From: a virus
Taxonomy: Duplodnaviria; Heunggongvirae; Uroviricota; Caudoviricetes
Reading direction: 5' to 3' (one strand)
Virus record (IMG/VR): IMGVR_UViG_3300021400_004456
Length of the DNA: 64,000 nucleotides
The position numbers were made by a program, and so were the translations under genes. Positions within the stretch are counted from its first letter, which is position 1. The number at the start of each line of letters is the position of its first letter. Below, one piece after another: positions 646 to 61,901 of this stretch. The notes under the pieces are model-generated. The model saw only the letters and a list, made by a program, of their open reading frames with translations. It made no database searches and had not been told where the DNA came from.

Positions 646-658
646 AAACACCTAATAT
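646..658 (+). promoter_or_regulatory. class-A motif AAACACCTAATAT (candidate promoter element)
   Basis: Exact 13-mer, 31 nt before ATG 689. Confidence 0.5.
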
Positions 659-688
659 ATAGGGCAAATACAAAAGGAGTGGAAAGTA

Positions 689-1018
689 ATGTTTATTAAA
701 ACACTTTATAATATTTACGAAGTTGAAAATATTACAACAAGTAAAGATGCCTATTACGTTGGTGAAATGGCCGTTATACGTAAAAATCAAGTTATTGCAA
801 AAGCAAAAAAATTAACTGATTTAATAGATGAATTCGCAATTGAGGATAAAATTTTTTCTTGGAGTGAAATAAATAATCCAGTAAGTGCTATTGATTTTTT
901 TAAAGATTGTTCTGAAACTGCTAAATTGTATGGTATTTTAAATATCAACAACAAAAAGAAAAAAATCATAGAATATAATCGCACTTCGCAAACTTGGAAA
1001 TTATTAAAAAAATATTAG
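689..1018 (+). CDS. hypothetical protein
   Basis: 109-aa ORF with a GGAG RBS about 8 nt upstream. A class-A motif lies at 646-658 and a terminator at 602-635 upstream. Confidence 0.5.
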   Translation: MFIKTLYNIYEVENITTSKDAYYVGEMAVIRKNQVIAKAKKLTDLIDEFAIEDKIFSWSEINNPVSAIDFFKDCSETAKLYGILNINNKKKKIIEYNRTSQTWKLLKKY

Positions 1019-1029
1019 GAGGTTTCAAA

Positions 1030-1401
1030 ATGAATAAAGAAATCAAATTACCTGTTTCAAAAGAAACTTTTGTTGAAATTTTTAAACATATCAAAGAAAA
1101 TAGAAAAAAGTATGGTAAATTACAAGAAGCTTTAGAAGATTTATCTCCTGGTAATTATTGTAATTTCTGGCCACATTTTACAGAAGAGAATTTATTTATT
1201 GACTTATTGATAGAGGTTCTTAATTTAAAACCTTCTGTTACAAAAATAGAAGAATATTATGTTAATATAATTGATTATTATATTGAGGAAATAATTGATA
1301 AAAAACCAAATGAAATTAAAGCAGAAGATAAAGAAATATCTACACCTGCTAAATTATATGACTATATCGTAAAGAATTACGACAAAATAAAAAAGGAGTA
1401 A
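1030..1401 (+). CDS. hypothetical protein
   Basis: AGGAGG RBS lies immediately before ATG 1030. The ORF-track start at 994 overlaps the upstream gene and lacks an RBS. Confidence 0.5.
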   Translation: MNKEIKLPVSKETFVEIFKHIKENRKKYGKLQEALEDLSPGNYCNFWPHFTEENLFIDLLIEVLNLKPSVTKIEEYYVNIIDYYIEEIIDKKPNEIKAEDKEISTPAKLYDYIVKNYDKIKKE

Positions 1402-1405
1402 TAAA

Positions 1406-2215
1406 ATGAGTAAAGAAGCTACAAACGCATTAGGAAAAAGAATGAAAGATTATGAAAAAGAGGCAAGAAGTTATTTAGCTTCTAAGACACCTGTTATCAT
1501 TAGAATTGATGGGAAGGCCTTTCATACTTTTACAAGAGATTTAAATAGACCTTATGATGTAACTTTCCACTATTGTATGACTGAAACAGTAAAATACTTA
1601 TGTAAGAATGTTCAAAACTGTAAATTAGGATACACTCAATCTGATGAAATCACTTTAGTTTTATTAGATGATTTAAATGAAAACAGTTCAACATTCTTTG
1701 ATAATCAAATTGAAAAGATTTGTTCAGTAACTGCATCTATGGCAACCCTTGCATTTAATAAGGCTGTTTATGAAAAAGTTCAAGAATTCAAAAATAGATT
1801 ATTCTTATCACCTAATGATAAAGAATTAAAAGAATTACTTGATGTATGGACAAGTAAAATGTTTAAAGCTGAATTTGATGCAAGATGTTTTAATGTTCCA
1901 AATAGAACTGAGGTATTAAATGCTTTGATCAATAGACAACAAGATGCTATTAAAAATAGCATTACAATGTTAGCCTTAGCTCACTTTTCTACAAAAGAAT
2001 TAAATAAAGTTAATAGTTCACAAAAGCTTGAAATGCTATCAAAGAAAAATATTGATTGGAATACTTACTCTACGCATTCTAAAAGTGGAGTAGTAATTTA
2101 TAAAGAATTCTTTGATAAAGAAGGTGCTTTAAGAAGCCGTTGGACGGTCGATGAAAACACACCAATTTTTGCTGAACATCCATCATATATTTTAAATTTT
2201 CTATCTAATAAGTAA
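1406..2215 (+). CDS. Thg1-like protein (tRNA-His guanylyltransferase family, 3'-5' nucleotidyltransferase)
   Basis: The N-terminal region (..VIIRIDGKAFHTFTRDL..PYD..) resembles the Thg1/TLP catalytic core. AAGGAG RBS. A strong terminator lies at 2219-2250. Confidence 0.55.
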   Translation: MSKEATNALGKRMKDYEKEARSYLASKTPVIIRIDGKAFHTFTRDLNRPYDVTFHYCMTETVKYLCKNVQNCKLGYTQSDEITLVLLDDLNENSSTFFDNQIEKICSVTASMATLAFNKAVYEKVQEFKNRLFLSPNDKELKELLDVWTSKMFKAEFDARCFNVPNRTEVLNALINRQQDAIKNSITMLALAHFSTKELNKVNSSQKLEMLSKKNIDWNTYSTHSKSGVVIYKEFFDKEGALRSRWTVDENTPIFAEHPSYILNFLSNK

Positions 2216-2218
2216 AAA

Positions 2219-2250
2219 AGAAACCTGTATTTCACAGGTTTTTTATTTTT
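2219..2250 (+). terminator. Rho-independent terminator
   Basis: Stem aaacctgt/acaggttt (loop atttc) followed by tttttattttt. Confidence 0.7.
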
Positions 2251-2299
2251 AAACATAAAAAAGTTGTTTAATAATATATTTAATGGAGGAAAAATTCAA

Positions 2300-2911
2300 A
2301 TGGAGAAAACAATAAAAACCATAGATAGAAACAAGGAAGAATATATAAACGATTATTATAATTGTCTTACTTATGCTAAAAGAATTACAATATTGCCTTT
2401 TGCCTCTTTAATAAAAATGAGTGCATCAGCAATTCAAAGCTTATATAACCACGTTAGTGGAGTTCGTCAAGCTTTATATTGGACACGTGAAAAAGATCAC
2501 GAATACCATAGATATGACGAAATGGATGATAATAGACGTTATGACGAAACTCTTGGTGAATATGAAGCAGTTCTTGATAATGCATATTTGCTTGTTGCTA
2601 ACAAACTTAAAGGTGCTACTAAGTATAAATCTTTATGGGTAAGAATATCTGAAACTCAAACTAAAAAGATAGCTTATGCTAAAGAACATAGTGTTAGAAA
2701 TTTTAAAGCTAAGTTGGTAGCTTGTCCTAATTGTGAATCAAAAGTTAATAAGAAATTTGTAAAGTATGATAGATGCCCTGTATGTGATAAGGATCTTAGA
2801 TCAAAAACTACAATTAATACTTTAAGAGGTTATGAAAATAAAATAATAGCACTAAAAAATGAAGCTAATATTGAATATCGTAAACTTTATGAACTTAACT
2901 TTAAGAAGTGA
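2300..2911 (+). CDS. zinc-ribbon protein, function unknown
   Basis: C-terminal CPNC..(n)..CPVC pair. GGAGG RBS 9 nt before ATG 2300. The ORF-track start at 2264 is TTG without an RBS. Confidence 0.5.
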   Translation: MEKTIKTIDRNKEEYINDYYNCLTYAKRITILPFASLIKMSASAIQSLYNHVSGVRQALYWTREKDHEYHRYDEMDDNRRYDETLGEYEAVLDNAYLLVANKLKGATKYKSLWVRISETQTKKIAYAKEHSVRNFKAKLVACPNCESKVNKKFVKYDRCPVCDKDLRSKTTINTLRGYENKIIALKNEANIEYRKLYELNFKK

Positions 2912-2929
2912 GCAATGCTCACTTTTTTT
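2908..2929 (+). terminator. Rho-independent terminator
   Basis: Stem gtgagc/gctcac followed by ttttttt. Overlaps the stop codon. Confidence 0.6.
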
Positions 2930-2976
2930 ATTAAACATAAAGAGAATGTCATTAAATTAATATAGGAGGAAAAAAT

Positions 2977-3422
2977 ATGACAAAATATGAGAAAAGAGAA
3001 AATGGAATTTTAGACAATACAGTTCCTAAGATGACAGAAACAACTAAAAAATTTTAAAGGATTTTTTAGAAGACGCTGAAACTTTTTATTTAGCTGTTAA
3101 AACTCCTCGTAAGGATGAGTGGAAAGAATATCACGGTGTTTATAGAGATTGCAGATTAAAAATCGATAGAGATGTTCTTTTATCAGCAGGTATTCACTTC
3201 TATAATTGTCGTGAAACTGATAGTGGCAGTGATTATTTAGGTTCACTTGAAGATTTTGTAGGAGTTAACTTTAGTGGTACTGTTCTATTATTAGAAGAAA
3301 TTGATTATGGAAAGTGGAAAAATTTCCTTCCATTGAACAACGAAAGAATGGTTCAATGGACTTTCAATGATGATGAAACATTTGAAGCATTAAAGGGAAC
3401 AATATTAGAGCTATCTGAATAA
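2977..3422 (+). CDS. hypothetical protein encoded in two frames (26-aa ORF 2977-3057 plus start-less 125-codon ORF 3048-3422); needs a -1 shift at an A6 run or carries a homopolymer error
   Basis: AGGAGG RBS before ATG 2977, with stop at 3055-3057. The -1 frame is open from 3048 to the TAA at 3420-3422 with clean coding character (..LKDFLEDAETFYLAVKTPRKDEWKEYHGVYRDC..), but has no ATG/GTG/TTG for about 95 codons and no RBS. Confidence 0.4.
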
Positions 3423-3446
3423 TTAAATGAAGAGAGGAATGATAAA

Positions 3447-3995
3447 ATGTCTAAGATTAAAGTAAAATGTGTAATGCCTATCTATACCATTGTAGTCAAT
3501 GGTTCTTGTGATAGAGATAGTTTTTCAGAAAATGTAATAACTTTTGCTGGAAATGAAAAGCTTAAAGAAGTTCGTGAAACTTTTTCAAATATCTACAATG
3601 AAAACTTAAAGTATTATGATTTAACTAATACAAGTTTTATTAAAGATTTTAGTGAAACTCCTAACGGATTAAACTATAGTGCTTCTTTTGAAATGTATTA
3701 TGAAGGTTCTTACGATGATAATCACGTTTCTGGAACAGTTAGCACAACGTTTGTTGATGCCGAAATTGAAGTTGATACTAATGATTTAAATTTAAGTGAT
3801 CAATTTTGGTTTAATGAAGCTAAAGTCTATGCAACTAGATATCTAGAGGATAATAAGCTAACATTACCTGTAGAAACAATTAATGAAATTTGTGAAAAGG
3901 TTGCTAAATCAGCTCCTAATAATGAATATTTATGGGATCAAATTGATTTTGCTTTTGGCTCTGATGTTAGAGAGGCTATCGAAAATAAAATTTAA
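3447..3995 (+). CDS. hypothetical protein
   Basis: 182-aa ORF with AGAGAGG RBS. Terminator at 4002-4030. Confidence 0.5.
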   Translation: MSKIKVKCVMPIYTIVVNGSCDRDSFSENVITFAGNEKLKEVRETFSNIYNENLKYYDLTNTSFIKDFSETPNGLNYSASFEMYYEGSYDDNHVSGTVSTTFVDAEIEVDTNDLNLSDQFWFNEAKVYATRYLEDNKLTLPVETINEICEKVAKSAPNNEYLWDQIDFAFGSDVREAIENKI

Positions 3996-4036: not shown

Positions 4037-4049
4037 AAACACCTAATAT
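4037..4049 (+). promoter_or_regulatory. class-A motif
   Basis: aaacacctaatat, 39 nt before ATG 4088 and directly after the terminator. Confidence 0.5.
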
Positions 4050-5642: not shown

Positions 5643-5684
5643 AAAACATAAAAGAAGCATTGAAAAGTTATCGAGGTGATGTAA

Positions 5685-5887: not shown

Positions 5888-5900
5888 AAACACCTAATAT
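5888..5900 (+). promoter_or_regulatory. class-A motif
   Basis: aaacacctaatat, 20 nt before ATG 5920. Confidence 0.5.
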
Positions 5901-6683: not shown

Positions 6684-6694
6684 TTAAAACATAA
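6684..6694 (+). promoter_or_regulatory. class-B motif TTAAAACATAA (candidate promoter; CATAAT is a -10-like hexamer)
   Basis: 26 nt before nrdG ATG 6720. Confidence 0.5.
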
Positions 6695-7865: not shown

Positions 7866-7940
7866 TTAGAAAACATAATTTTCTTGAAAACTAAAAATAT
7901 ATTTTTAAATATATGATTAATAAAGGAGAAAAGAAAAATT

Positions 7941-8353: not shown

Positions 8354-8482
8354 AAAAACATAAGAAAAATGTATCTTATTAAGCTAGAGGGAATTTTAGT
8401 AGTAAATCTTATTGGCTTTAATATTATCATTTAACTTTTTAATCTTTCCTTTCCGTTGAATGATAATATCAAGATAAACAAA

Positions 8483-8516
8483 AGACACTCACTTTTTCTA
8501 TCGAGTGTCTTTTTTA
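8483..8516 (+). terminator. Rho-independent terminator
   Basis: Stem agacactc/gagtgtct followed by ttttt. Confidence 0.55.
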
Positions 8517-8558
8517 GTTTATATAAAACATAATAAAACAGACAGGAGGCCGATAAAA

Positions 8559-12368: not shown

Positions 12369-12421
12369 TTTTTCTAAAACATAATCAAGATTGTTAAAGT
12401 TAATAACTGGAGGAAATTAAT

Positions 12422-13066: not shown

Positions 13067-13108
13067 GCTATTTATAAAACATAAAATATATAAAAAGGAG
13101 CGTTTAAT

Positions 13109-14108: not shown

Positions 14109-14119
14109 TTAAAACATAA
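14109..14119 (+). promoter_or_regulatory. class-B motif
   Basis: ttaaaacataa, 35 nt before ATG 14154. Confidence 0.5.
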
Positions 14120-14866: not shown

Positions 14867-14877
14867 TTAAAACATAA
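14867..14877 (+). promoter_or_regulatory. class-B motif
   Basis: ttaaaacataa, 33 nt before ATG 14910. Confidence 0.5.
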
Positions 14878-14909: not shown

Positions 14910-15761
14910 ATGAAATATTCAATTTTACAATTGGAAAAGAAGAGAAAACAAAGCAGAAATTTAATTATCGTTTTAGATATTCTTTCTTTATTTTTTTTAT
15001 TTGTAGGCTTTACTTTTTTACTGATTTCACATATTTTTAAAGATTATAGTTTAGCTTTTATAAGTTTTGGTCTTTATTTGTTTGGAGCTTTAATTTTAGG
15101 CTATGCTTTTATAACTTCACTTATAATAAAAAAAGAAATAACTTCTCAAAAACTTTTTGAAAGTATTTTAAAAACTAGTTTTCCTGACGGTACTTTTGAA
15201 GAGGTAAATAAACTATCATTTGGCGATTTTAGAAAAATGAAAATTCTTGGTGATTTCAATTTTTTAAATAGTCAAATTAATTTCGGTTATAACAATGATG
15301 ATGAAACACTTAAATTTTGTGATATAGAACTTAAAAATACTAATACCGAAAAAGAAGTTTTTAAAGGACTAGCAATTGAATTTTCTAACAAGAAATCAAA
15401 ATCAATAGATAACTCTACTAAAATTTTAATCAAAACCCCTAATTTTAAGGCTGTAAAACAAAAAGCTTTAAAAGAAAAAATAATTGATACTTTGAATTTT
15501 GGTAATACCTTTATCACTTACGCAAATGATGAAAAAAGTTTAGATTTAATTGATGATGAATTCAAAAAAAGAATTTTAAAAATTTATTCAATTGTTCAAA
15601 AAGAAATGGTTTTTTACTTCTATGAAAATAAATTTGTTTTATTAATATCTGATTATTCTTTTTCTAAGATCAAAACTAAGTATAACATTTCAGACCCTTT
15701 ACAACATTTATACGAGAATATTTATTGTGTTATAGATTTTATTAAAGACTTAAACACCTAA
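14910..15761 (+). CDS. membrane protein
   Basis: Two N-terminal TM helices. AAAGGAG RBS. The coding sequence ends ..tta aac acc taa, which reproduces the class-A motif. Confidence 0.5.
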   Translation: MKYSILQLEKKRKQSRNLIIVLDILSLFFLFVGFTFLLISHIFKDYSLAFISFGLYLFGALILGYAFITSLIIKKEITSQKLFESILKTSFPDGTFEEVNKLSFGDFRKMKILGDFNFLNSQINFGYNNDDETLKFCDIELKNTNTEKEVFKGLAIEFSNKKSKSIDNSTKILIKTPNFKAVKQKALKEKIIDTLNFGNTFITYANDEKSLDLIDDEFKKRILKIYSIVQKEMVFYFYENKFVLLISDYSFSKIKTKYNISDPLQHLYENIYCVIDFIKDLNT

Positions 15762-15762
15762 T
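15751..15762 (+). promoter_or_regulatory. class-A-like motif embedded in the last codons of CDS 14910-15761, immediately followed by a class-B motif (15763-15773)
   Basis: taaacacctaat. Confidence 0.3.
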
Positions 15763-15807
15763 TAAAACATAAAGCATTTTGCAAGAGTTGTGAAAATAAA
15801 AGAATAT

Positions 15808-17140: not shown

Positions 17141-17151
17141 CAAAACATAAA
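17141..17151 (+). promoter_or_regulatory. class-B motif (first of two in tandem, flanking an 18-bp palindrome)
   Basis: caaaacataaa; a second copy lies at 17207-17217, before the sigma-like gene. Confidence 0.45.
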
Positions 17152-17175: not shown

Positions 17176-17250
17176 CCCTTTAATTAATTCTTTTTCATTT
17201 TTTCTTTAAAACATAAAAATGTCGATATAAAAAAATATGGAGGAAATGTG

Positions 17251-18321
17251 ATGAAAAATACCAATGAAAAAGAATATATAGAAAATGAAGCTGAAGATAT
17301 TGAAACTGAAAATAAAAATGAACAGCTTGATAGTAACGATCCTCGTTATTTAAAGTTAAAACAACGTTCATATAATTTTTTAGTTAATACTATCGAAAAC
17401 TTAAAGATTTCTTCTCGTAAAGACGAAAATGCATCAAAGATTGAAATGTTAGAATTAACACGCAAATTGTTTGATGCGAGAGATTCTGGCGACAAAAATG
17501 CTATTTATAAAGCAACTGAAAATTTGTTAATGTGCAAATATTTCTCTGCTTTTATAAACGATCAAGCTATTAAGTGCCGTCAAATCAAGAAGGACGGGAC
17601 TAATTCCACGGTTTCAATTCAAGATTTTAAGTCTGAAATTTATTTAACTTGCTGGACTTGGCTTAAAAAATATACTGGTGTAACAGATTCCGGATATTTT
17701 TGTAGTCCTATCACTTTCGTAACTTATCCAATTTTAGAATCTTGTAGACAATTGGATAATAGCTTAGGACATCCTATCACTATTAAGTCTAATGCTACTC
17801 GTGTTTCAAAATTCTATAAGAAGATTGGAGAAAGCCTTGATAGTGCATTTGAAAGAGCACTTTTAAGTTATAAGAGAACTCTTGAAGCTAAATTTTCTAA
17901 GGAAACTAAGAATTATATTTCATTAGATTCAACAGTATCTGATACTAATAATCGTTCTTATGGAGAGGTTATTGGAGATACAGTTGCTGATACAATTTCA
18001 GATAATAATAAGACAGACATTTTTGCTAGAATGCAACAAGAAGAAATGATTCAAATTTTAACTAAAGACTTTAGTGAAAAAGAATGTATGATTTTTAAAT
18101 CTTGTTTCTTTGATGGCGGTTTATATATACCTGAGTCTGAAAAACAAAAAACAATGACTGCCGAAGAAGTAAATAAGGCCATTCGTCCAAAATACACTCT
18201 TTTGGAAAGCGAATTAGGCATTTCAAAATCTGATATTAAAACGACTTATACTAACTTAATCAAGAAGATTAAGAATGATCCGTATAAAATGGAATATTTA
18301 AATTCTTTAAGAAAGCACTAA
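17251..18321 (+). CDS. possible divergent sigma-70-family factor
   Basis: The C-terminal HTH (MTAEEVNKAIRPKYTLLESELGISKSDIKTTYTNLIKKIK) resembles sigma region 4, and a central aromatic-rich segment resembles region 2. The assignment is tentative. GGAGG RBS before ATG 17251. Confidence 0.4.
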   Translation: MKNTNEKEYIENEAEDIETENKNEQLDSNDPRYLKLKQRSYNFLVNTIENLKISSRKDENASKIEMLELTRKLFDARDSGDKNAIYKATENLLMCKYFSAFINDQAIKCRQIKKDGTNSTVSIQDFKSEIYLTCWTWLKKYTGVTDSGYFCSPITFVTYPILESCRQLDNSLGHPITIKSNATRVSKFYKKIGESLDSAFERALLSYKRTLEAKFSKETKNYISLDSTVSDTNNRSYGEVIGDTVADTISDNNKTDIFARMQQEEMIQILTKDFSEKECMIFKSCFFDGGLYIPESEKQKTMTAEEVNKAIRPKYTLLESELGISKSDIKTTYTNLIKKIKNDPYKMEYLNSLRKH

Positions 18322-18360: not shown

Positions 18361-18373
18361 AAACACCTAATAT
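18361..18373 (+). promoter_or_regulatory. class-A motif
   Basis: aaacacctaatat, 28 nt before ATG 18401. Confidence 0.5.
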
Positions 18374-20596: not shown

Positions 20597-20600
20597 TAGA

Positions 20601-20626
20601 AACTCGCTTCTTGCGAGTTTTTTTAT
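20601..20626 (+). terminator. Rho-independent terminator
   Basis: Stem aactcgc/gcgagtt followed by ttttttt. Confidence 0.7.
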
Positions 20627-20711
20627 GCATTAGGAAATTCTATTTGCATATTTATGTAAAACTCTACTAATTTTTCTCAATTTTTTTAAAAAAAGCCATC
20701 ATTTTTACCCT

Positions 20712-20735
20712 ATTTATCATAAATTTGATAAAATT
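20712..20735. promoter_or_regulatory. palindromic site tttatca-taaat-tgataaa in long non-coding region
   Basis: 7-bp arms TTTATCA/TGATAAA around a 5-nt centre. Coordinates are approximate within the 20597-21019 gap. Confidence 0.25.
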
Positions 20736-21019
20736 AAAAAATAGCTTACCTAATGGATTTTATTTTATTTTTGTGATACATAAATGCCGCTTTGAATATA
20801 ATAAAAAAATATAAACGTAACTCAAATGATACTGTAATAAAGTATTTGGTGAGTAGTGGTCTAGCAATGCCTTATAGAGTATATGTAAATATGTAGAAAT
20901 ACATAATTATATATAAATTCGTTAAAATATGAGTATACTCATAGAGTGAATTGAAAATTCACTTTTGTTCTAAAACATAAGATTAATGTATTCAAAATTT
21001 AATGGAGGAAATATTTAAA

Positions 21020-21410: not shown

Positions 21411-21451
21411 TTTACTAAACATAATAATAATGAAAAAAGGAGGTTGATATT

Positions 21452-23076: not shown

Positions 23077-23088
23077 TTTAAAACATAA
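23077..23088 (+). promoter_or_regulatory. class-B motif
   Basis: tttaaaacataa, 26 nt before ATG 23114. Confidence 0.5.
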
Positions 23089-24716: not shown

Positions 24717-24770
24717 AATATTAACACAGGGCGTATTAAAAACATAAAAATTAATAGAGGTGTATAAAAT

Positions 24771-27373: not shown

Positions 27374-27384
27374 TTAAAACATAA
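27374..27384 (+). promoter_or_regulatory. class-B motif
   Basis: ttaaaacataa, before the primase gene. Confidence 0.5.
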
Positions 27385-28635: not shown

Positions 28636-28695
28636 TCTTCTCTTTTATTTTATTTAAACATAAAAAAAGAAATAATATATTAGGAGAGTGATAAT

Positions 28696-30278: not shown

Positions 30279-30290
30279 AAACACCTAATA
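30279..30290 (+). promoter_or_regulatory. class-A motif
   Basis: aaacacctaata(c), 23 nt before ATG 30313. Confidence 0.45.
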
Positions 30291-30312
30291 CAAGCTATAA
30301 GGAGTAGCATCT

Positions 30313-31698: not shown

Positions 31699-31730
31699 CT
31701 CTTAAATCTTTCTAATCCTCTTATGTTTTC

Positions 31731-31742
31731 TTTAAAACATAA
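31731..31742 (+). promoter_or_regulatory. class-B motif
   Basis: tttaaaacataa, 38 nt before ligA ATG. Confidence 0.5.
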
Positions 31743-33790: not shown

Positions 33791-33801
33791 TTAAAACATA
33801 A
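33791..33801 (+). promoter_or_regulatory. class-B motif opening the ORF-free island
   Basis: ttaaaacataa directly after the ligA terminator. There is no protein gene downstream. Confidence 0.45.
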
Positions 33802-34214: not shown

Positions 34215-34227
34215 AAACACCTAATAT
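34215..34227 (+). promoter_or_regulatory. class-A motif inside the ORF-free island (no protein gene downstream for about 540 nt)
   Basis: aaacacctaatat directly after terminator 34181-34209. Confidence 0.45.
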
Positions 34228-34711: not shown

Positions 34712-34769
34712 ATGAAAACATAACAAAATTGTTTTAAAATAAATTAAGAGAAAAAATACGGAGGAATTT

Positions 34770-35706: not shown

Positions 35707-35717
35707 CAAAAACATAA
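35707..35717 (+). promoter_or_regulatory. class-B motif
   Basis: caaaaacataa, 45 nt before nrdD ATG. Confidence 0.5.
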
Positions 35718-38010: not shown

Positions 38011-38023
38011 AAACACCTAATAT
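38011..38023 (+). promoter_or_regulatory. class-A motif
   Basis: aaacacctaatat, 36 nt before ATG 38059. Confidence 0.5.
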
Positions 38024-39270: not shown

Positions 39271-39347
39271 AAAAAATAATTTGTGATATTGATTATGCCG
39301 GTGGTAAACATTTCCCTGTTGGTGAAACTAAAAATAAAATATGGGAA

Positions 39348-39620: not shown

Positions 39621-39624
39621 AATA

Positions 39625-40370: not shown

Positions 40371-40419
40371 TTTTAAACATAAAAATTATGAAACATTTTA
40401 AAAGCGAGGGATATTTTAT

Positions 40420-40896: not shown

Positions 40897-40909
40897 AAAT
40901 ACCTAATGT
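40897..40909 (+). promoter_or_regulatory. degenerate class-A motif
   Basis: taaatacctaatg; followed by a class-B motif at 40933-40943. Confidence 0.3.
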
Positions 40910-41088
40910 GGATGCTCAAAAATTATTATTTTTTTAAAACATAATACAAGTGTAATTAATTTTACTGATGAGCTTATCACTCATTAAAAAACACAGATCT
41001 GAGGAAAGGATTCTATTCAAAAAGCTTGATAACCTTTTTCGAATAGACTGTGCCACTTATTTCCAGGCACATCGAGGAATATAAAAAT

Positions 41089-41586: not shown

Positions 41587-41599
41587 TTTTAAAACATAA
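41587..41599 (+). promoter_or_regulatory. class-B motif
   Basis: ttttaaaacataa, 31 nt before ATG 41630. Confidence 0.5.
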
Positions 41600-42268: not shown

Positions 42269-42333
42269 TTATATTCGTAAAACATAAGTTTAAATGTAAA
42301 GTATAAAAATTAGAGGAAGGAATAAATGGAGAA

Positions 42334-43012: not shown

Positions 43013-43025
43013 AAACACCTAATAT
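43013..43025 (+). promoter_or_regulatory. class-A motif
   Basis: aaacacctaatat, 25 nt before ATG 43050. Confidence 0.5.
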
Positions 43026-48395: not shown

Positions 48396-48534
48396 ATCAA
48401 CGATAATTTTTATTATTATCTTTTGTGATATTTTGCCACTTCAAAAACATAAAATAAATAGATTATCAAAAAAACAAAATAGCCTAATTTTTGTTTGATA
48501 ACTATTTTATTATTTTTAAAAGGAGATGGATTTT

Positions 48535-49472: not shown

Positions 49473-49482
49473 TAAAACATAA
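49472..49482 (+). promoter_or_regulatory. class-B motif
   Basis: gtaaaacataa, directly before the giant ORF. Confidence 0.45.
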
Positions 49483-52400: not shown

Positions 52401-53657
52401 AGTTATGCAATTCATCAAGGAAATGTAGGAACACAATTTGCTTTAACATCTATGTCTCCTACCGAATTTGCTGGTGAATTAATGTCTGGCGATTTTACAA
52501 GCGAAGGTGAAGCTAGTAGCACTCCAGTGGAAATTAGATTTGAACAAAATCCTGAAACTAGCGAAAAACTTCTTGTTTTCGAAGTAAATGGCAAAGCTAT
52601 AGAAATTCCTATGAGCAAATATGAAAAATTATCTGATGCTCAAGGCAAACTATTAGAAAAAATTAAAGATGGAATTGATAAGGCTGAAAATAATTCAGAA
52701 AATTCAATTGAGCCATTCTACGAAGCAATTAGTGATATGATAATCGATGCTTATCCTGAGGGTTCACCTGAAGCTACAGAAAAACTTGATGAATTTGAAA
52801 AACTTATAGATAACATTGATGCTAAACCTGAAACATTGGAAAATGTCGAAAAGAAAATAGATGATGTTGAAAAAGCCGGAGAACCTCATTATGAAATTAC
52901 TGATGATGGTAATATCGAGTATTCTGAAAAGGGTGAAACAACAACTTATACACCTGAAGAGTTTGCTAAAGAACTTAAAACAGATCCTCAATTACAATCT
53001 GATTTACAATCTTTAGAACAAACTACTGAGCAAGCAAATACTGAACAACAACAAACTCTTGAAGAGCAAAATGTTGCACAACCAGTTGAAGCTCAAAAAT
53101 CAGATATTCCTGTTGCACAAAATCCTATTGAACAACAACCTGCTATGGAAAGACAACCTGGTCACCTTAGAGGATTATTAAATCAAATGGTTGAAAATCA
53201 AAAAGCTGCAATTTTACAACCTGTTGAAGCTTTTAAAACTCAATTTAAGGATGACAAATTTAGTTTTGCACACCCTATCGAAGCTAAGAAAGCATCAAAT
53301 GGTTCTGATTTCCAAAAGATGGGCGCATTACTAGAAGCTCTCGGAAAAGCAATTGGTTCTGATAAACTTCAAGGTATCGGCGAAAAGTTATATAAAAAGG
53401 GTTCTAAAATGAAAGATGAAGTTGATACTTTCAAGAAAGAACTTGCAGAAAAAGGTGCAGATACTGAAGCTAAAGCAGATAATGGTGAAGATATTCAAAA
53501 GGCAGATGCTGAATTACAACAAGATGCTATGGATACTCTTAACGAAATTCCTACTGATACAGACACAGATAATAATGCTGAAAATCAAGTTGAAAGTCCT
53601 ACCGATGTGGACACTGACGACTTTGATGCTGGTGAGTCATTCGCTGCTTTACTATAA
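49488..53657 (+). CDS. giant acidic coiled-coil membrane protein
   Basis: 1389 aa. Two adjacent TM helices (~aa 345-390). Long Lys/Glu coiled coils. Poly-acidic Glu/Asp/Thr block. Tandem protein repeat RKEYEAKLEEAKAEI/RKEYEAKLEAY. The start could be 49515. Confidence 0.55.
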   Translation: MKIMKGRGYMPKSILNKELGVMITPSNPNQIDTLADGSLEVGNKKNHMYLNGEHWKVIDTASLSLTENNGQRISASHFVESYFAKVYEVDIKSVLSNELMNDFQSSPEVNQNSNDKKEKTIEVGAKFSKEYDDLITQIKKELSKSDDKKANFQLEETIIAGLIEKIENSNFPAYAVAYDKIQKVSEIELQDLQAPENFVSDAIDNAVETTSASILEMVVSKSDEECSETEKEYKTLNAIVDKNEQVTSKLDTLKTEILKFYSEEIQDAKDKAEIYAKEHLIELKDALVERINDSRYAVGTRTEKFNVDVEGTNKIKEGKFQSAKAQYEQDIEKISKNIRENGSSKRVSFRRMASVLLLPIGLVTGVAISSAFTPLVGLPLGATIVGMIAKGQIRNMQAMKGENLPKTFKLLKFSNPDEAQKIKADFVAAQANYEARTSIENERYDALQDCLYEIDMDASDLGIESKKDYREFLDNNVEKSQLDEARNKIAARHSQKFENVKQAFKSIDEVAANLGDEKISQILSETETGLDKMTGEKGKIEYLLEAELRFRKKIVDLKADAIEKNTHKKIDDKFVEKYKATIEKISDKISNLKNKLKETTSKEDKDKFKKQIKELEKIEKNCENKAKQLEKSIDRNDKDISKNKAKIERFAEAIEGLGSKIKTDADFSKKLEKENDIESLKKADEKYFASKEDEFNALEKEIDNVEKGEAVDTDTENQEEVAYESSEEQSTEEDAEEDAETETETETEDESLEEETTDEVPDEAVEEAFTDEAEEEAIEDVSNELESEVEDTQAEETQEQPQEAQDELFTETTDNSKDIEAIKAELRKEYEAKLEEAKAEIRKEYEAKLEAYDNKFAEKEKEIQELKAENKVENQPEPTVETKQPEKRNFSDSAEKKFTNNIITKGIIAKLSGDVSTSENSVFKIAQNSEARETLLDAFYQTKSFKNENDFPGETYANFRATLDTVSAIQDSYAIHQGNVGTQFALTSMSPTEFAGELMSGDFTSEGEASSTPVEIRFEQNPETSEKLLVFEVNGKAIEIPMSKYEKLSDAQGKLLEKIKDGIDKAENNSENSIEPFYEAISDMIIDAYPEGSPEATEKLDEFEKLIDNIDAKPETLENVEKKIDDVEKAGEPHYEITDDGNIEYSEKGETTTYTPEEFAKELKTDPQLQSDLQSLEQTTEQANTEQQQTLEEQNVAQPVEAQKSDIPVAQNPIEQQPAMERQPGHLRGLLNQMVENQKAAILQPVEAFKTQFKDDKFSFAHPIEAKKASNGSDFQKMGALLEALGKAIGSDKLQGIGEKLYKKGSKMKDEVDTFKKELAEKGADTEAKADNGEDIQKADAELQQDAMDTLNEIPTDTDTDNNAENQVESPTDVDTDDFDAGESFAALL
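51955..52045 (+). repeat. imperfect tandem repeat (~63 nt unit) inside the giant ORF
   Basis: cgtaaagaatatgaagccaaattagaa..agaaaagaatatgaagctaagctagag encodes RKEYEAKLE twice. Confidence 0.5.
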
Positions 53658-53698: not shown

Positions 53699-53711
53699 AA
53701 ACACCTAATAT
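53699..53711 (+). promoter_or_regulatory. class-A motif
   Basis: aaacacctaatat; a class-B motif follows at 53741-53751, before erf. Confidence 0.5.
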
Positions 53712-53787
53712 AAGCATAATAAAAATAATAAGTTTTTTTGTTAAAACATAATAAAAATGACTTCAATAAATATTAGGAGGAAATGTA

Positions 53788-54610: not shown

Positions 54611-54645
54611 TTCAAAAAAATAGGCATTTTAAAACATAAAGTAAT

Positions 54646-54658
54646 AAACACCTAATAA
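54646..54658 (+). promoter_or_regulatory. class-A motif (variant ..TAATAA)
   Basis: Preceded by a class-B motif at 54627-54639, before the topoisomerase gene. Confidence 0.45.
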
Positions 54659-57905: not shown

Positions 57906-58568
57906 ATGACAAACAAAGTTTTAACCGATGAAGACATCATCATTCCGGGTGAAGAAAAACAAGAAGCTCCTAAGACTTCTAAAAGAGGCCGTAAATCTAA
58001 GAAAACTGTGTCAGTTGAAGAAATTAAAACTGAAACAACTGAGGCCTCTGCCGAAGAAACTAAAACTGAACCAGTCAAAGAAGAAACTTCTGAAGCTGTT
58101 TCTACCGAAGCTCCTGTGTCTGCAGTAGTTGAAGAAAAGCCTAAAGATGTTGAAAAAGTAGAAGAAAAGGTTGAGGAACCTTCTGCACTTTCAGGTGAAA
58201 GAACAACATCTATTGAAGATTTAACTTTGGAAAAAGATGAAACTGTAGAACAAAAAATCATTAAAATCTATAATGAATTAGATGATATTGATTTACCCGA
58301 ATTACAAGATGAAATTACAAAATTAAAGGAAGGATTACAACAATTAGAAGCAAGATTGGCCGTTGTTAGAGCACAAAAAGAAGCTCTAGCTGAAGAAGAA
58401 TATGACAAGGATAATGTTTCTCCATTAGTTGAAGGTGTTCATAAAGAAGAACCTTTAGTGTATGAAACTGTCCCTAATAACAATCTTTTATCTTGGATTT
58501 TCCTTGGTGTTATTGGTGTGTCCTTAATTGCTCTTATCATCTTGTTATCTATTGTTATTATGAAATAA
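57906..58568 (+). CDS. acidic, tail-anchored membrane protein
   Basis: Glu/Thr/Lys-rich low-complexity N-terminal region, a coiled coil, and a single C-terminal TM helix. Confidence 0.5.
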   Translation: MTNKVLTDEDIIIPGEEKQEAPKTSKRGRKSKKTVSVEEIKTETTEASAEETKTEPVKEETSEAVSTEAPVSAVVEEKPKDVEKVEEKVEEPSALSGERTTSIEDLTLEKDETVEQKIIKIYNELDDIDLPELQDEITKLKEGLQQLEARLAVVRAQKEALAEEEYDKDNVSPLVEGVHKEEPLVYETVPNNNLLSWIFLGVIGVSLIALIILLSIVIMK

Positions 58569-58570
58569 TA

Positions 58571-59065
58571 ATGGAATTTACTAATATTAATTATGACAGT
58601 TATATAAAAACTGATGAAGTTAAATTTGTGCTTACAAAATCAACTCCGTTAACTCATAGCGTAAAGCATATAGTTGATGATGCTAAACGTGTTGGAAAAT
58701 ATATTCCTTCATATGTTAGAAAAGCAACTAATGCTTACGTTGTAACGGACAAGGGTTTTGTATATGAATCTTACCTTTCCATAGAGTTATTATTGAAAAG
58801 ATTTAAGGAATGTGGAAAGGACTTTGTAACGTTGTCAAGCGGAAATTATATTTCTGCTGGACATATAAGTGCTGTTCTGGCTTATACTCAGACTTTAGTG
58901 GTTAAGTATGGGGAAAAGACTGGAATCACAAACAACGTCTTGCAGTTTGTGCGTCAATCAGGAGGAAAAAACAGTGTGATTTTGACAACTGATAATGAAA
59001 TGATTTGTTTGAGTGAAGACACATCAACTGTTGTTAAGGAATTAAAAGCCTTAAGCAAACAATAG
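58571..59065 (+). CDS. hypothetical protein
   Basis: ATG 58571 follows the stop of the upstream gene. The ORF-track 58493 start overlaps it. Confidence 0.5.
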   Translation: MEFTNINYDSYIKTDEVKFVLTKSTPLTHSVKHIVDDAKRVGKYIPSYVRKATNAYVVTDKGFVYESYLSIELLLKRFKECGKDFVTLSSGNYISAGHISAVLAYTQTLVVKYGEKTGITNNVLQFVRQSGGKNSVILTTDNEMICLSEDTSTVVKELKALSKQ

Positions 59066-59334
59066 TTGATCGGTCAAGTCAACTTTCAATGAAATATTAA
59101 GTAAAGTTAGATAAAAAACAATGGGTTTTCTGATAGTTTGGTCGTTGCAATTGTGTAGTGATTAAGTTCGCTATACAAGATAGGTTTCGATTGTTATTAA
59201 GATATTTGAAACATAGTAAGAATAAGCCAAAGCCAGTCAAATAATGATTGATATGGTTTACAAGAGATGTCTTGTTTTTGGACTAAAATTGCCTTGTTTT
59301 GTAATATTTCTTAAATTATTAAAAAGGGTGTGTT

Positions 59335-59347
59335 AAACACCTAATAT
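59335..59347 (+). promoter_or_regulatory. class-A motif
   Basis: aaacacctaatat, 66 nt before ATG 59413. Confidence 0.5.
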
Positions 59348-61006: not shown

Positions 61007-61038
61007 AGTAAGTTTTAATAACTTACTTTTTCTTTTTT
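61006..61038 (+). terminator. Rho-independent terminator
   Basis: Stem aagtaagt/acttactt followed by a T-run. Confidence 0.6.
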
Positions 61039-61042
61039 AATA

Positions 61043-61055
61043 AACACCTAATGTT
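61043..61055 (+). promoter_or_regulatory. class-A motif (variant ..TAATGT)
   Basis: A class-B motif follows at 61081-61091, before ssb. Confidence 0.4.
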
Positions 61056-61158
61056 AATGCAACGAAAAATGTTTTTTATTTAAAAACATAATTCAACTGT
61101 ATATAAAATTATATATAGATAAAATATTCATTTAAAAATAATTTAGGAGGAAATAAAA

Positions 61159-61548
61159 ATGAATAATGTAGTTTTAATTGGAAGAATCACAAAGGATTTA
61201 GAAATCAGAGAAGCTGGTACATCTAAGGTAGTTAATTTTACTTTGGCAGTTGATAGAGGTATTAAGGATAAACAAGGCAACAAGCAAACTGACTTTATTA
61301 ATTGTCAAGCTTGGAATGCAACAGCAACTTATATGGGCACTTATTTAAAGAAGGGCAATTTAGTAGCTTTGGAAGGACGTATTCAAACTCGTCAATATCA
61401 AGATAACCAAGGTCAAACTCGTTATGTAACTGAGGTTGTTGCTGATCAAGTTAATAATTTAACTCCAAGATCAGCTGATGCTGGCTCAGCAAATGAAACT
61501 GAGGCTCCTGCTGATGTCGAAGTTACTGATGATGATTTACCATTCTAA
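61159..61548 (+). CDS. ssb: single-stranded DNA-binding protein
   Basis: OB-fold SSB N-terminus (MNNVVLIGRITKDLEIRE..) and acidic C-terminal tail ending DDDLPF. Confidence 0.85.
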   Translation: MNNVVLIGRITKDLEIREAGTSKVVNFTLAVDRGIKDKQGNKQTDFINCQAWNATATYMGTYLKKGNLVALEGRIQTRQYQDNQGQTRYVTEVVADQVNNLTPRSADAGSANETEAPADVEVTDDDLPF

Positions 61549-61565
61549 TCTTAAACTGAAAAATA

Positions 61566-61593
61566 AAGAACCTTTTAAAAGGTTCTTTTTTTC
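61566..61593 (+). terminator. Rho-independent terminator after ssb
   Basis: Stem agaacc/ggttct followed by tttttt. Confidence 0.7.
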
Positions 61594-61844
61594 TTAAAAA
61601 AAATTTTTTTCTTAAAAACATAAGAGTATCGTATATTCAAAGGGCTTACCGTAAGGAACCCGAATATTTAATATAGAGGAAATTATTAAATGAAGCGAGA
61701 AAATAAATATTTCGTGAAAACTACACTAATGTGTAGATGAATTTTGGTTCAGTCTACACATAACGGAAAGATATGTAGTAGGCTTTTATTATATAGATTA
61801 AAAAACCTATTGCTTTTCTCTCCTTTCGGCAAATAGATTTTTAA

Positions 61845-61876
61845 GAAACATCGTCAAAAGATGTTTCTTTTTTTAT
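61845..61876 (+). terminator. Rho-independent terminator
   Basis: Stem gaaacatc/gatgtttc followed by ttttttt. Confidence 0.7.
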
Positions 61877-61890
61877 TTATACATTTTTAG

Positions 61891-61901
61891 CAAAAACATA
61901 A
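61891..61901 (+). promoter_or_regulatory. class-B motif
   Basis: caaaaacataa, 41 nt before the helicase ATG 61942. Confidence 0.5.

What the first reader, a model, noticed from the sequence alone, without database searches (positions are those of the whole stretch)
646..61901. Two families of conserved intergenic motifs (AAACACCTAATAT and TTAAAACATAA) placed 20-65 nt upstream of start codons: a two-class promoter grammar
Class A (AAACACCTAATAT) occurs at least 15 times:
- exact or near-exact: 646, 4037, 5888, 18361, 24704, 30279, 34215, 38011, 43013, 48383, 53699, 54646, 59335, 61043;
- degenerate: 40897.

Class B (TTAAAACATAA[T/A]) occurs about 37 times, near: 2249, 2931, 5641, 6684, 7869, 8355, 8522, 12375, 13074, 14109, 14867, 15763, 17141, 17207, 20970, 21415, 23077, 24737, 27374, 28654, 31731, 33791, 34714, 35707, 40373, 40933, 41587, 42277, 48442, 49472, 53741, 54627, 56904, 61081, 61612, 61891.

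Both classes sit directly after terminators and 20-65 nt before RBS and ATG, always on the plus strand. Both contain -10-like hexamers (TAATAT and CATAAT) but no recognisable -35.

Several genes carry both classes in tandem: erf, topoisomerase, ssb, 48535, 41089. That suggests two temporal classes or two polymerase/sigma specificities.

Such rigid motifs are typical of phages that redirect host RNAP with their own sigma factor, or that carry their own RNAP. From memory, and not verified, an AACA core is reminiscent of late promoters reported for giant AR9/PBS1-like Bacillus phages that encode multisubunit RNAPs.

The candidate sigma-like gene at 17251-18321 is a possible cognate factor.
Basis: partly seen in the sequence, partly recalled or inferred. 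Interest (0 to 1): 0.7.

Follow-up and report, generated by a model that had tools for sequence, protein, structure and literature searches.

The report
Two phage promoter families lacking -35
Two short DNA words found in front of almost every gene of an uncultured 164-kb phage-like genome from the rumen are almost certainly its transcription start signals: a cut-down form of the ordinary bacterial promoter that its relatives still use, probably read with the element's own sigma factors, which is tidy but not unprecedented.

Summary
AAACACCTAAT occurs 15 times on the + strand (14 intergenic) and never on the - strand. AAACATAA occurs 37 times on + (35 in the 11.7% of the window that is intergenic) and twice on -. 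One of those two - copies sits 34 nt upstream of the only minus-strand gene. 40 of 44 intergenic gaps of at least 45 nt carry a motif, usually just after a terminator.

New findings:
- Class B has a fixed T-G 6 nt downstream (AAACATAA-N6-TG). That matches a CATAAW -10 hexamer with a start at G.
- Collinear distant relatives (27-49% protein identity) carry cTTGAC-N16-(AAC)TATAAA-N5-TG, and also TTGACA-N16-CATAAA, at orthologous positions. These are classical sigma-70-type promoters.
- The window has lost the -35 (TTG in 1/37 class B and 0/15 class A sites, against 24/27 in relatives).
- The sigma-like ORF 17251-18321 is probably a very divergent sigma-70 protein.
- A second, RpoD-derived sigma gene lies just beyond the window.
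- No phage RNA polymerase signature was found in 71.6 kb.
- AR9 promoter geometry does not fit.

Verdict: these are real promoters read by a sigma-70-type holoenzyme, in two specificities. Which factor reads which class is unproven. This is a new member of a known kind.

The parts
646..658 (+). class A promoter motif AAACACCTAATAT, 30 nt before ATG 689 (operon ending with a Thg1-like gene)
4037..4049 (+). class A, exact; follows a terminator; before the SPFH/Band-7 gene at 4088
5888..5900 (+). class A, exact; only 19 nt before ATG 5920
15752..15764 (+). class A variant AAACACCTAATTA, overlapping the class B site at 15765; before the HtrA-like protease gene at 15853
18361..18373 (+). class A, exact; between the terminator of the sigma-like gene and the surface-repeat gene at 18401; kept in relative L125
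24705..24717 (+). class A (last base A), in tandem with class B at 24740; before gene 24771
30279..30291 (+). class A (last base C); before gene 30313
34215..34227 (+). class A, exact; heads an ORF-less unit that ends at a terminator near 34419-34445
38011..38023 (+). class A, exact; before the small-gene operon 38059-40335
40897..40909 (+). class A, degenerate (AAATACCTAATGT), in tandem with class B at 40937; before gene 41050
43013..43025 (+). class A, exact; before the operon of the 253-aa membrane protein and PolC; orthologous to AACTATAAA in L140 and TTTACT-17-TGaTATAAT in L128
48382..48394 (+). class A, exact, in tandem with class B at 48445; before gene 48526
53699..53711 (+). class A, exact, in tandem with class B at 53744; before the ERF gene at 53788
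54646..54658 (+). class A (last base A), 14 nt after the class B site at 54632; before the topoisomerase gene at 54686
59335..59347 (+). class A, exact; before genes 59413 and 59930
61042..61054 (+). class A (AAACACCTAATGT), in tandem with class B at 61084; before the SSB gene at 61159
2251..2258 (+). class B core AAACATAA; before the gene that starts at 2300 (ENA gene call) or 2264
2933..2940 (+). class B; before the ATG at 2975
5644..5651 (+). class B; before gene 5685
6687..6694 (+). class B; before the NrdG-like activase operon at 6720
7871..7878 (+). class B; before gene 7941
8356..8363 (+). class B; heads an ORF-less unit that ends at a terminator near 8480-8515
8526..8533 (+). class B; before the operon at 8561 (625-aa secreted protein and a trypsin-like protease)
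12377..12384 (+). class B; before gene 12422
13077..13084 (+). class B; before gene 13109
14112..14119 (+). class B; before the guanylate-kinase-like gene (ATG 14154)
14870..14877 (+). class B; before gene 14910
15765..15772 (+). class B, overlapping the class A variant at 15752; before gene 15853
17143..17150 (+). class B, the distal of two before the sigma-like gene; kept in relative L125
17209..17216 (+). class B, the proximal one, 34 nt before the ATG of the sigma-like gene; kept in L125
17251..18321 (+). sigma-like ORF ('sigma1', 356 aa): probably a very divergent sigma-70-family protein and a candidate reader of one class
   Evidence: It is an orphan: only two close homologs exist.
20973..20980 (+). 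class B; before gene 21002
21417..21424 (+). class B; before gene 21452
23081..23088 (+). class B; before gene 23114
24740..24747 (+). class B, in tandem after class A at 24705; before gene 24771
27377..27384 (+). class B; before the primase gene at 27406
28656..28663 (+). class B; before gene 28696
31721..31728 (-). class B on the minus strand, 34 nt before the ATG of the only minus-strand gene (31692->31288); a natural control for orientation
31735..31742 (+). class B; before the NAD-ligase gene at 31780; divergent with the minus-strand copy
33794..33801 (+). class B; heads an ORF-less unit that ends at a terminator near 34181-34205
34716..34723 (+). class B; before gene 34770
35710..35717 (+). 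class B; before the NrdD gene at 35762
40375..40382 (+). class B; before the DUF488 gene at 40420
40937..40944 (+). class B, in tandem after the degenerate class A at 40897; before gene 41050
41592..41599 (+). class B; before gene 41624
42280..42287 (+). class B; before gene 42334
48445..48452 (+). class B, in tandem after class A at 48382; before gene 48526
49475..49482 (+). class B; before the 1386-aa gene; L140 has TTGACA-N16-CATAAA (preceded by AAAA) before a 1189-aa ORF at the matching position in the gene order
53744..53751 (+). class B, in tandem after class A at 53699; before the ERF gene
54632..54639 (+). class B, immediately before class A at 54646; before the topoisomerase gene; orthologous to cTTGCT-N16-TATAAA in L140
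56905..56912 (+). class B; before gene 56965; orthologous to TTGATT-N16-TATAAA in L134 and L140
61084..61091 (+). class B, in tandem after class A at 61042; before the SSB gene
61616..61623 (+). class B; before a short ORF or leader at 61700
61894..61901 (+). class B; before the RecD2/UvrD-type helicase gene at 61970; orthologous to TTGACT-N16-TATAAA in L134

Best explanation
Both motif families are promoters of a large phage-like genome. The window is the left 64 kb of a 163,889-bp contig with all genes but one on one strand. The genome is organised as compact terminator-promoter-RBS-gene modules.

The promoters are -35-independent and of the 'extended -10' type. They are used by a bacterial core RNA polymerase carrying a sigma-70-family factor, not by a phage-encoded polymerase.

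Class B, (T)AAAACATAAW-N5-TG, is the local derivative of the promoter used across the lineage, cTTGAC-N16-(AAC)TATAAA-N5-TG. Read in that register it is C-12 A-11 T-10 A-9 A-8 W-7, with an A-tract at -16..-13 and initiation at the G. The -35 TTG has been lost.

Class A, (T)AAACACCTAATAT, is a second, more rigid specificity. It has neither a -35 nor the TG start signal.

The element encodes at least two sigma-like proteins: the orphan ORF 17251-18321 ('sigma1'), and an RpoD-derived ORF ('sigma2') beginning about 7.05 kb beyond the end of the window. I infer that class B is read by an RpoD-type holoenzyme, carrying either the host primary sigma or sigma2. I infer that class A is read by a holoenzyme with a phage sigma, most simply sigma1, whose own gene sits behind two class B promoters. 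Genes with both motifs in tandem would then be expressed under both regimes.

Shown: the motif statistics, the geometry, the positional orthology to classical promoters, and the sigma homology.
Inferred: actual initiation at these sites, which factor reads which class, and any temporal order.
For: 1. Distribution:
- AAACATAA is 37 on + and 2 on -, with 35/37 in the 11.65% of sequence that is intergenic. AAACACCTAAT is 15 on + and 0 on -.
- 40 of 44 gaps of at least 45 nt carry a motif (my count).
- The one minus-strand gene has its own minus-strand class B copy 34 nt upstream.
- Terminators lie just upstream of 11/16 class A and 22/37 class B sites, against 6.4% at random.
- The pattern continues beyond the window in L123.

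2. Start-site signal: TG lies exactly 6 nt after AAACATAA in 17/37 sites, plus 5 more sites one nucleotide further on. The background rate is 6%. This puts G at +1 for a CATAAW hexamer at -12..-7.

3. Canonical TTGACA-17-TATAAT sites are not enriched. There are 110 against 120.8 expected in the first 20 kb, and only 2 of 29 good matches are intergenic. The A and B motifs are therefore the only candidate promoters.

4. Relatives L134, L137, L139, L140 and L128 are collinear with window 43-64 kb at 24-49% protein identity.
- Their intergenic motif is AAC[TC]ATAAA, with TTG at a 15-17-nt spacer in 24/27 sites and TG at -1/+1 in 16/27.
- In the window, TTG is present in 1/37 class B and 0/15 class A sites.
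- Relatives also have TTGACA-N16-CATAAA preceded by AAAA. One such site precedes a 1189-aa ORF of L140 at the place in the gene order that matches the 1386-aa gene behind class B at 49475.
- Class A at 43013 is orthologous to AACTATAAA in L140 and to TTTACT-17-TGaTATAAT in L128.

5. Sigma factors:
- The relatives' 388-396-aa proteins are RpoD-like, with Pfam regions r2, r3 and r4.
- L140 also has a 279-aa sigma with r2 and r4.
- A 120-sequence sigma HMM run against all ORFs of the window plus L123 picks out exactly two: the syntenic ORF at L123 19894 (E=1.4e-7) and window 17248-18321 (E=1.2e-4). The next best ORF scores E=0.3.
- hhalign of sigma1 against the sigma alignment gives E=1.6e-4 over 278 collinear columns covering regions 1.2 to 4.2.

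6. No D.D[GA]D, [HNS]G[QNM]KG or T7-type motifs occur in any frame of the window plus L123.

7. -10-dominated sigma-70 promoters with rare -35 elements are normal in Mollicutes (M. gallisepticum: 1061 start sites, 122 with a -35 box; PMC4245973). One relative sits in an Anaeroplasmataceae MAG.
Against: - No transcription start site has been mapped. Everything rests on sequence and comparison.
- 92 kb of the contig could not be read, so a phage RNA polymerase gene there is not excluded.
- Sigma1 is an orphan. Only two close homologs exist among 5.8 billion and 1.8 billion proteins, there is no PDB hit, and the AlphaFold pLDDT is 43. Each sigma signal is individually weak: hhalign probability is only 51%, and the six-sequence clade HMM did not list it.
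- Only 165 of the 356 residues of sigma2 are visible.
- Position -7 of class B is T in only 17/37 sites (A in 13). Class A, read as CCTAAT in the class B register, lacks A-11.
- Class A shows no start-site signal, so its register is unknown.
- The rigidity of class A (10 identical 13-mers) is more typical of promoters for phage-encoded polymerases than of sigma-dependent ones.
- No relative with class A was found, so class A has positional but not sequence-level comparative support.
Confidence: 0.72

Rival explanations
1. The motifs are promoters for a phage-encoded RNA polymerase. This could be multisubunit as in AR9/PBS1/phiKZ, or single-subunit, delivered with the virion or made early. The rigid class A would correspond to the early 'virion polymerase' type and class B to the AACA late type.
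For: - Class A is a 13-nt, nearly invariant, AT-rich word, like the AR9 early consensus AAATATATATTAT-N6-G. AR9 late promoters contain AACA and a T-A/G start, and AR9 genes expressed throughout infection carry both promoter types (PMC5312081).
- No canonical host-type promoter is present in the left 64 kb.
- 92 kb of the contig is unread.
Against: - The geometry fails. AR9 is AACA-N6-T-R(+1); class B is AACA-N9-TG.
- There is no metal-binding D.D[GA]D motif, no beta-type [HNS]G[QNM]KG motif and no T7-type motif in six frames of 71.6 kb.
- The 1386-aa ORF is an acidic coiled-coil protein, not a polymerase.
- Relatives place classical TTG -35 elements at a fixed 16-nt spacer in front of the same -10 words. 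That is the signature of a sigma-70 holoenzyme.
- The element carries sigma genes.
Confidence: 0.08
2. There is one specificity, not two. Both classes are read by the same holoenzyme (host primary sigma or the RpoD-like phage sigma) and differ only in strength or in an overlapping regulator site. The orphan sigma-like ORF serves other promoters, for example late ones in the unread part, or is not a sigma at all.
For: - The two words align on TAAT with 8 of 11 positions shared (AAACACCTAAT against TAAAACATAAT; my alignment of the matrices).
- Both follow terminators and precede the same kinds of replication genes.
- Relatives use a single promoter family in about 80 kb sampled.
- Mollicute primary sigma works largely without a -35 element.
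Against: - There are no intermediates: 15 sites have ACACCTAAT and 37 have AAACATAA.
- The TG start signal is in 22/37 class B sites but only 0-2/15 class A sites.
- Seven genes carry both classes in a preferred order, A then B about 35-63 nt later. That is hard to explain if the two are redundant.
- Two sigma-like genes exist for two classes.
Confidence: 0.15
3. The motifs are operator sites for a DNA-binding regulator (for example the RemA-like protein at 58493-59065) or RNA-level signals (processing sites, or an anti-Shine-Dalgarno CACCT in class A), rather than promoter cores.
For: - Class A contains CACCT, which is complementary to the AGGTG ribosome-binding sites used in the window.
- A RemA-like DNA-binding protein is encoded in the window.
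Against: - A-only and B-only units sit behind terminators and have no other promoter-like sequence, so the motif must supply the promoter.
- The distance to the RBS varies from 8 to more than 100 nt. That argues against a fixed RNA pairing.
- In tandem A-B arrangements, class A would lie outside a transcript started at class B.
- Orthologous positions in relatives are classical promoters.
Confidence: 0.05

Closest known systems
Sigma cascades of large Bacillus phages (SPO1 gp28 and gp33/34) and phiEco32 gp36. Cited in PMC5312081; the details are from my own knowledge.
   Same: - A large phage keeps the host core polymerase and supplies its own sigma-70-family factors.
- Each factor has its own rigid promoter word.
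- Some genes carry promoters of two classes.
   Different: - Here neither class has a -35 element, whereas SPO1 middle and late promoters have both elements.
- One sigma is derived from RpoD and the other is an orphan.
- No expression data exist.
T4 late promoters (TATAAATA at -10, read by gp55 with gp33 and the sliding clamp). From my own knowledge.
   Same: An 8-9-bp, -35-independent, AT-rich -10 word placed about 6-7 nt from the start and repeated before many genes.
   Different: - The word is different.
- No gp55, gp33 or gp45 homologs were detected.
- The sigma candidates here retain region-4-like sequence.
AR9/PBS1 two-class promoters read by virion and non-virion multisubunit RNA polymerases (PMC5312081)
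   Same: - Two classes, one a 13-nt rigid word and one a short word containing AACA.
- A conserved start dinucleotide.
- Genes with both promoter types.
   Different: - The spacing differs (N9 here, N6 in AR9).
- No split beta/beta' genes in 71.6 kb.
- Relatives use TTG -35 elements.
- Sigma genes are present.
-10-dominated sigma-70 promoters of Mollicutes (M. gallisepticum, PMC4245973) and extended -10 promoters of Gram-positive bacteria
   Same: A -10 hexamer in an AT-rich context with a dispensable -35, plus extra conserved bases directly upstream of the hexamer.
   Different: - The upstream extension is AAAA(C) or AAACACC, not TRTG.
- The hexamer has C at -12.
- Conservation is far more rigid than in cellular promoters.

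Membership tests
sigma-70-type bacterial promoter | -10 hexamer with A at -11 and T at -7, ending 6-7 nt before a purine start | tested here: inconclusive
   - Class B: C A T A A W, with A-11 invariant (by selection), W-7 being T in 17 and A in 13 of 37, and T-G at -1/+1 in 22/37.
- Class A: TAATAT fits as a hexamer, but there is no start signal to fix the register.
- No start sites have been mapped.
sigma-70-type bacterial promoter | -35 element TTGACA 16-18 nt upstream of the -10 | tested here: not met
   TTG at a 15-17-nt spacer occurs in 1/37 class B and 0/15 class A sites (random 6%). It occurs in 24/27 sites of relatives L134, L137 and L139. The window therefore carries -35-independent derivatives.
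sigma-70-type bacterial promoter | a sigma-70-family factor is available | tested here: met
   - Sigma HMM: L123 19894-20390, E=1.4e-7; window 17248-18321, E=1.2e-4.
- hhalign E=1.6e-4.
- TIGR02937 E=0.014.
- Relatives' sigmas pass Pfam r2 and r4.
AR9/PBS1 non-virion RNA polymerase late promoter | AACA-N6-T-A/G(+1) (PMC5312081) | tested here: not met
   Class B is AACA-N9-T-G. Class A is at best AACA-N7-T-A.
AR9/PBS1 non-virion RNA polymerase late promoter | phage genes for split beta/beta'-like subunits (DxDGD catalytic motif) | tested here: not met
   None found in six frames of the window or of L123, up to 71.6 kb of the contig. The remaining 92 kb was not readable.
AR9/PBS1 non-virion RNA polymerase late promoter | uracil-containing DNA, template-strand recognition | not testable with these tools
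   Base modification cannot be seen in an assembled sequence.
T7-type single-subunit RNA polymerase promoter | a 17-23-bp conserved word spanning the start, plus a T7-like polymerase gene | tested here: not met
   The words are 9-14 nt long and end before the inferred start. No HD[SAC][FYW] or DGSCSG-type motifs occur in ORFs, and there are no Pfam polymerase hits.
T4-type late promoter (gp55/gp33/clamp) | TATAAATA at -10 and gp55-like and gp33-like factors | tested here: not met
   The word is different. No PHROG or Pfam hit to gp55 or gp33 among the ten largest unannotated ORFs scanned against PHROGs or the 45 window ORFs scanned against Pfam. The arrangement may work in a similar -35-independent way, but it is not a member of this family.

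The most novel reading that the evidence does not exclude
This may be a natural case of promoter-grammar turnover inside one phage lineage. The lineage is uncultured, associated with Mollicutes, has contigs of up to 164 kb, and was not found in the IMG/VR and INPHARED searches made here.

Relatives keep cTTGAC-N16-TATAAA promoters and an RpoD-like phage sigma. This member has dropped the -35 altogether and split its promoters into two orthogonal -35-independent words. Each word would be served by its own strongly diverged phage sigma: an RpoD derivative, and an orphan that would found a new sigma-70 subfamily. The result would be a self-contained two-channel transcription system running on a host core polymerase.
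Probability: 0.3. Interest if true: 0.55.

Novelty: new member of a known kind. Interest (0 to 1): 0.35.

Why it matters
Practical value:
- The motifs give a near-complete transcription-unit map for the left 64 kb of an otherwise unannotatable genome, in which about 70% of ORFs have no family. The map includes ORF-less units that are probably small RNAs.
- It defines short, rigid, -35-independent promoter words that could serve as orthogonal parts in low-GC or Mollicute hosts.

Conceptual value:
- Comparison with collinear relatives shows a promoter consensus changing within one phage lineage while the promoter positions stay fixed, alongside diverging phage sigma genes.
- That makes co-evolution of sigma and promoter directly testable with a few recombinant proteins.

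This does not overturn anything. Phage-specific promoter sets and phage sigmas are well known.

Tried and rejected
- Megablast of 8 kb, and tblastn of the 1389-aa ORF, against 50,697 phage records found nothing. PolC matched only at under 60% identity.
- An exact-word scan of IMG/VR for AAACACCTAATATA gave only single chance hits. IMG/VR held no relative of PolC or of the relatives' sigma clade.
- The 1389-aa ORF was considered as a hidden RNA polymerase and rejected. It is an acidic coiled-coil protein with a transmembrane segment.
- tRNA and Rfam scans found nothing.
- Sigma1:
  - The word-indexed search found only two close homologs, and the full HMMER search listed only one of them.
  - The PDB sequence search found nothing.
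  - Single-sequence AlphaFold gave pLDDT 43, so no fold search was run.
  - hhalign against E. coli RpoE plus AlgU was uninformative.
  - The six-sequence clade HMM missed it.
- I first read L128 as a host-like bacterium. I revised this to a probable relative after finding the shared membrane-ORF/PolC arrangement. L130 (44% GC, no motifs) was not examined further.
- A literature search for the words themselves returned only unrelated primer-type hits. Nothing was found on Anaeroplasma phages.
- A stop-codon recoding explanation for the ORF-poor stretches was rejected. The 61970 ORF simply runs off the window, and stop usage is ordinary: TAA 48, TAG 8, TGA 5.

Full report
**Source and context**

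The window is positions 42-64041 of a 163,889-bp ENA metagenome scaffold (ERZ1756080). Fragments also occur in Logan SRR873599 and in NCBI assembly AUXO01. It has 26-32% G+C, and every gene but one is on the + strand.

Recognisable genes:
- replication and repair: PolC, NAD-ligase, a type IA topoisomerase, a primase, ERF and SSB;
- nucleotide metabolism: NrdD/NrdG and a guanylate-kinase-like enzyme;
- other: a Thg1-like enzyme, SPFH, trypsin/HtrA-like proteases and a RemA-like protein.

Most ORFs have no family. No cultured phage is close. I call it a large phage-like element. No virion genes were seen in the parts I could read.

All listed sites exist, within 1 nt for class A and 1-5 nt upstream of the AAACATAA core for class B.
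- AAACACCTAAT: 15 on +, 0 on -, 14 intergenic.
- AAACATAA: 37 on +, 2 on -, with 35 in the 11.65% of the window that is intergenic.
- In an unbiased count of intergenic 7-9-mers, these words are the top entries.
- 40 of 44 intergenic gaps of at least 45 nt carry at least one motif (my count).
- Motifs lie mostly 19-76 nt before the start codon.
- They lie just after terminator-like hairpins: 11/16 class A and 22/37 class B, against 6.4% of random positions.
- Terminator-like sites are themselves enriched (17 against 4.9 expected), while sigma-70-type -35/-10 matches are not (110 against 120.8). Only 2 of 29 good canonical matches are intergenic.
- The pattern continues for 7.6 kb beyond the window.

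- a class A variant at 15752;
- a class B site at 34453;
- a minus-strand class B copy at 31728->31721, 34 nt upstream of the ATG of the only minus-strand gene, which also has its own RBS and terminator. This is a natural control showing that the motif follows gene orientation.

**Anatomy**

Class A is (T)AAACACCTAATAT. Ten copies are identical, and nothing is conserved on either side except the terminator T-run.

Class B is (T)AAAACATAAW. TG lies exactly there in 17 sites and one nucleotide later in 5 more, against a 6% background.

If G is +1, the hexamer CATAAW occupies -12 to -7, with an A-tract at -16 to -13. That is ordinary sigma-70 geometry. Neither class has any -35 signal.

**Relatives settle the kind of signal**

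The RecJ-like gene just beyond the window led to a 147-kb contig (L134, 38% identity). The sigma gene of L134 led to L137 and L139. PolC led to L140, a 92-kb contig in an 'uncultured Anaeroplasmataceae' MAG, and to L128.

All are about 28-29% G+C and collinear with window 43-64 kb at 24-49% protein identity.

Their intergenic word is AAC[TC]ATAAA. In L134 the commonest form, AACTATAAA, occurs 13 times on + and never on -. TTG lies at a fixed 15-17-nt spacer in 24 of 27 sites, and TG at -1/+1 in 16 of 27. The full form is cTTGAC-N16-(AAC)TATAAA-N5-TG, a classical sigma-70 promoter with a short upstream extension.

Some sites in relatives read TTGACA-N16-CATAAA preceded by AAAA, which is the class B word plus a -35. 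One of these precedes a 1189-aa ORF of L140 that sits where the 1386-aa gene behind class B at 49475 sits in the window (no sequence similarity was detected between the two).

Window promoters before the topoisomerase gene, gene 56965, the SSB-position gene and the helicase gene have classical counterparts at the orthologous places. So does the class B site before the RecJ-like gene just beyond the window. Class A at 43013 corresponds to AACTATAAA in L140 and to TTTACT-17-TGaTATAAT in L128.

In the window, TTG at the equivalent position occurs in 1/37 class B and 0/15 class A sites. So promoter positions are conserved across the lineage. The window's genome has lost the -35 and uses two -35-independent words instead.

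**Who reads them**

No catalytic motif of multisubunit or T7-type RNA polymerases occurs in any frame of 71.6 kb. The 1386-aa ORF is a coiled-coil protein.

AR9 late promoters are AACA-N6-T-A/G (PMC5312081). Class B is AACA-N9-TG, so the AR9 lead fails on geometry.

The relatives' 388-396-aa proteins are RpoD-like sigmas, and L140 also has a 279-aa sigma. I built a sigma HMM from 120 of these hits and ran it against every ORF of the window plus L123. It singles out two ORFs:
- the truncated ORF at L123 19894-20390 (E=1.4e-7), which is syntenic with the relatives' sigma and preceded by a class A word;

The next best ORF scores E=0.3.

The candidate also gives:
- TIGR02937, E=0.014 across the whole model;
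- BLASTP E=5e-4 to regions 3.2-4.2 of the L134 sigma;
- BLASTP E=0.012 to region 2 of the L140 sigma;
- hhalign E=1.6e-4 over 278 collinear columns, with probability only 51%.

It is otherwise an orphan. I rate it about 80% likely to be a sigma-70-family protein.

The element therefore has at least two sigma-like genes for two promoter classes. Assigning class B to an RpoD-type holoenzyme (host sigma or sigma2) rests on homology of the promoter word. Assigning class A to sigma1 is only the simplest guess (about 30%). The sigma1 gene has two class B promoters, and the sigma2 gene has a class A word upstream.

-10-dominated promoters are normal in Mollicutes (PMC4245973). That fits the single, weak host hint from MAG binning.

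**Limits**

- There are no start-site or expression data.
- 92 kb of the contig is unread.
- Class A has no sequence-level counterpart in relatives and no start signal.
- Temporal classes are conjecture.

**Verdict**

The finding is real. These are promoters of the sigma-70 holoenzyme kind, in two -35-independent classes, in a poorly sampled phage lineage that encodes its own sigmas. That makes it a new member of a known kind, of moderate interest. The interest lies mainly in the within-lineage change of promoter grammar and in the orphan sigma.

Noticed in passing
window 33794-34716: A 1-kb ORF-less stretch is made of three consecutive promoter-motif plus terminator units: class B at 33794, class A at 34215 and class B at 34453. 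Both class B units (two copies in the first, one in the third) hold a 8-10-bp hairpin followed by GATCGAGT (33960, 34145, 34657); the class A unit holds none. These are the only three copies of that word in the window. No Rfam family reaches threshold (weak PyrR-site match, 30 bits, at 34332-34435). They are probably small RNAs.
   Followed up: partly
window 8356-8520 and 20596-20973: A class B motif at 8356 is followed by about 150 nt without an ORF and then a terminator, so it may be another small transcript. The 380-nt stretch 20596-20973 is non-coding and has no motif.
   Followed up: no
window 31288-31692 (- strand): This is the only minus-strand gene (134 aa, no family). It has its own class B motif, RBS and terminator, and is divergent from the ligase promoter.
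   Followed up: yes
window 1-646; L131, L132, L133: Three independent assemblies (ENA, Logan, NCBI) all end 610-730 nt to the left of gene 689. This suggests a physical genome end or a terminal repeat. The first 646 nt carry no motif.
   Followed up: partly
window 2975-3447: A good RBS and ATG open an ORF that stops after 26 codons, and the reading continues in another frame for about 130 codons. This is a frameshift, either programmed or an assembly error. The gap has no promoter motif, which fits a single gene.
   Followed up: no
window 49497-53657: A 1386-aa, highly acidic, coiled-coil protein with one transmembrane segment and no homologs in Pfam, PHROGs or phage records. Relatives carry ORFs of 1189-1432 aa at the same place.
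   Followed up: partly
window 59066-59334; L134 4341-4660; L137 2314-2615; L140 21987-22305: A roughly 300-nt non-coding stretch after the RemA-like gene keeps conserved blocks (for example TCGGTTAAGTTGAC, TTGGTCGAGAYAAAT, AAGATAAGTTTTGATTG) between genomes whose proteins are only about 30% identical. It may be a structured RNA or a replication element.
   Followed up: partly
L123 19894-20390 (contig about 71.1 kb, 7.05 kb beyond the window end): A second sigma gene (356 aa by the ENA gene call, only 165 aa visible). It is syntenic with the RpoD-like sigma of relatives and is preceded by a class A motif at L123 19808.
   Followed up: partly
L134, L137, L139, L140, L128: The lineage comprises large collinear contigs (up to 147-164 kb) from several metagenomes, and none of them turned up in the IMG/VR or INPHARED searches made here. 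One contig is binned in an Anaeroplasmataceae MAG. Downstream of the sigma gene, relatives carry a 3373-3531-aa Ser/Thr-rich ORF. L134 also has ADP-ribosyltransferase-toxin and PARP-domain genes.
   Followed up: partly
window 1406-2215: A Thg1-like (tRNA-His guanylyltransferase family) gene sits in the first class A operon, although the window has no tRNA genes.
   Followed up: no
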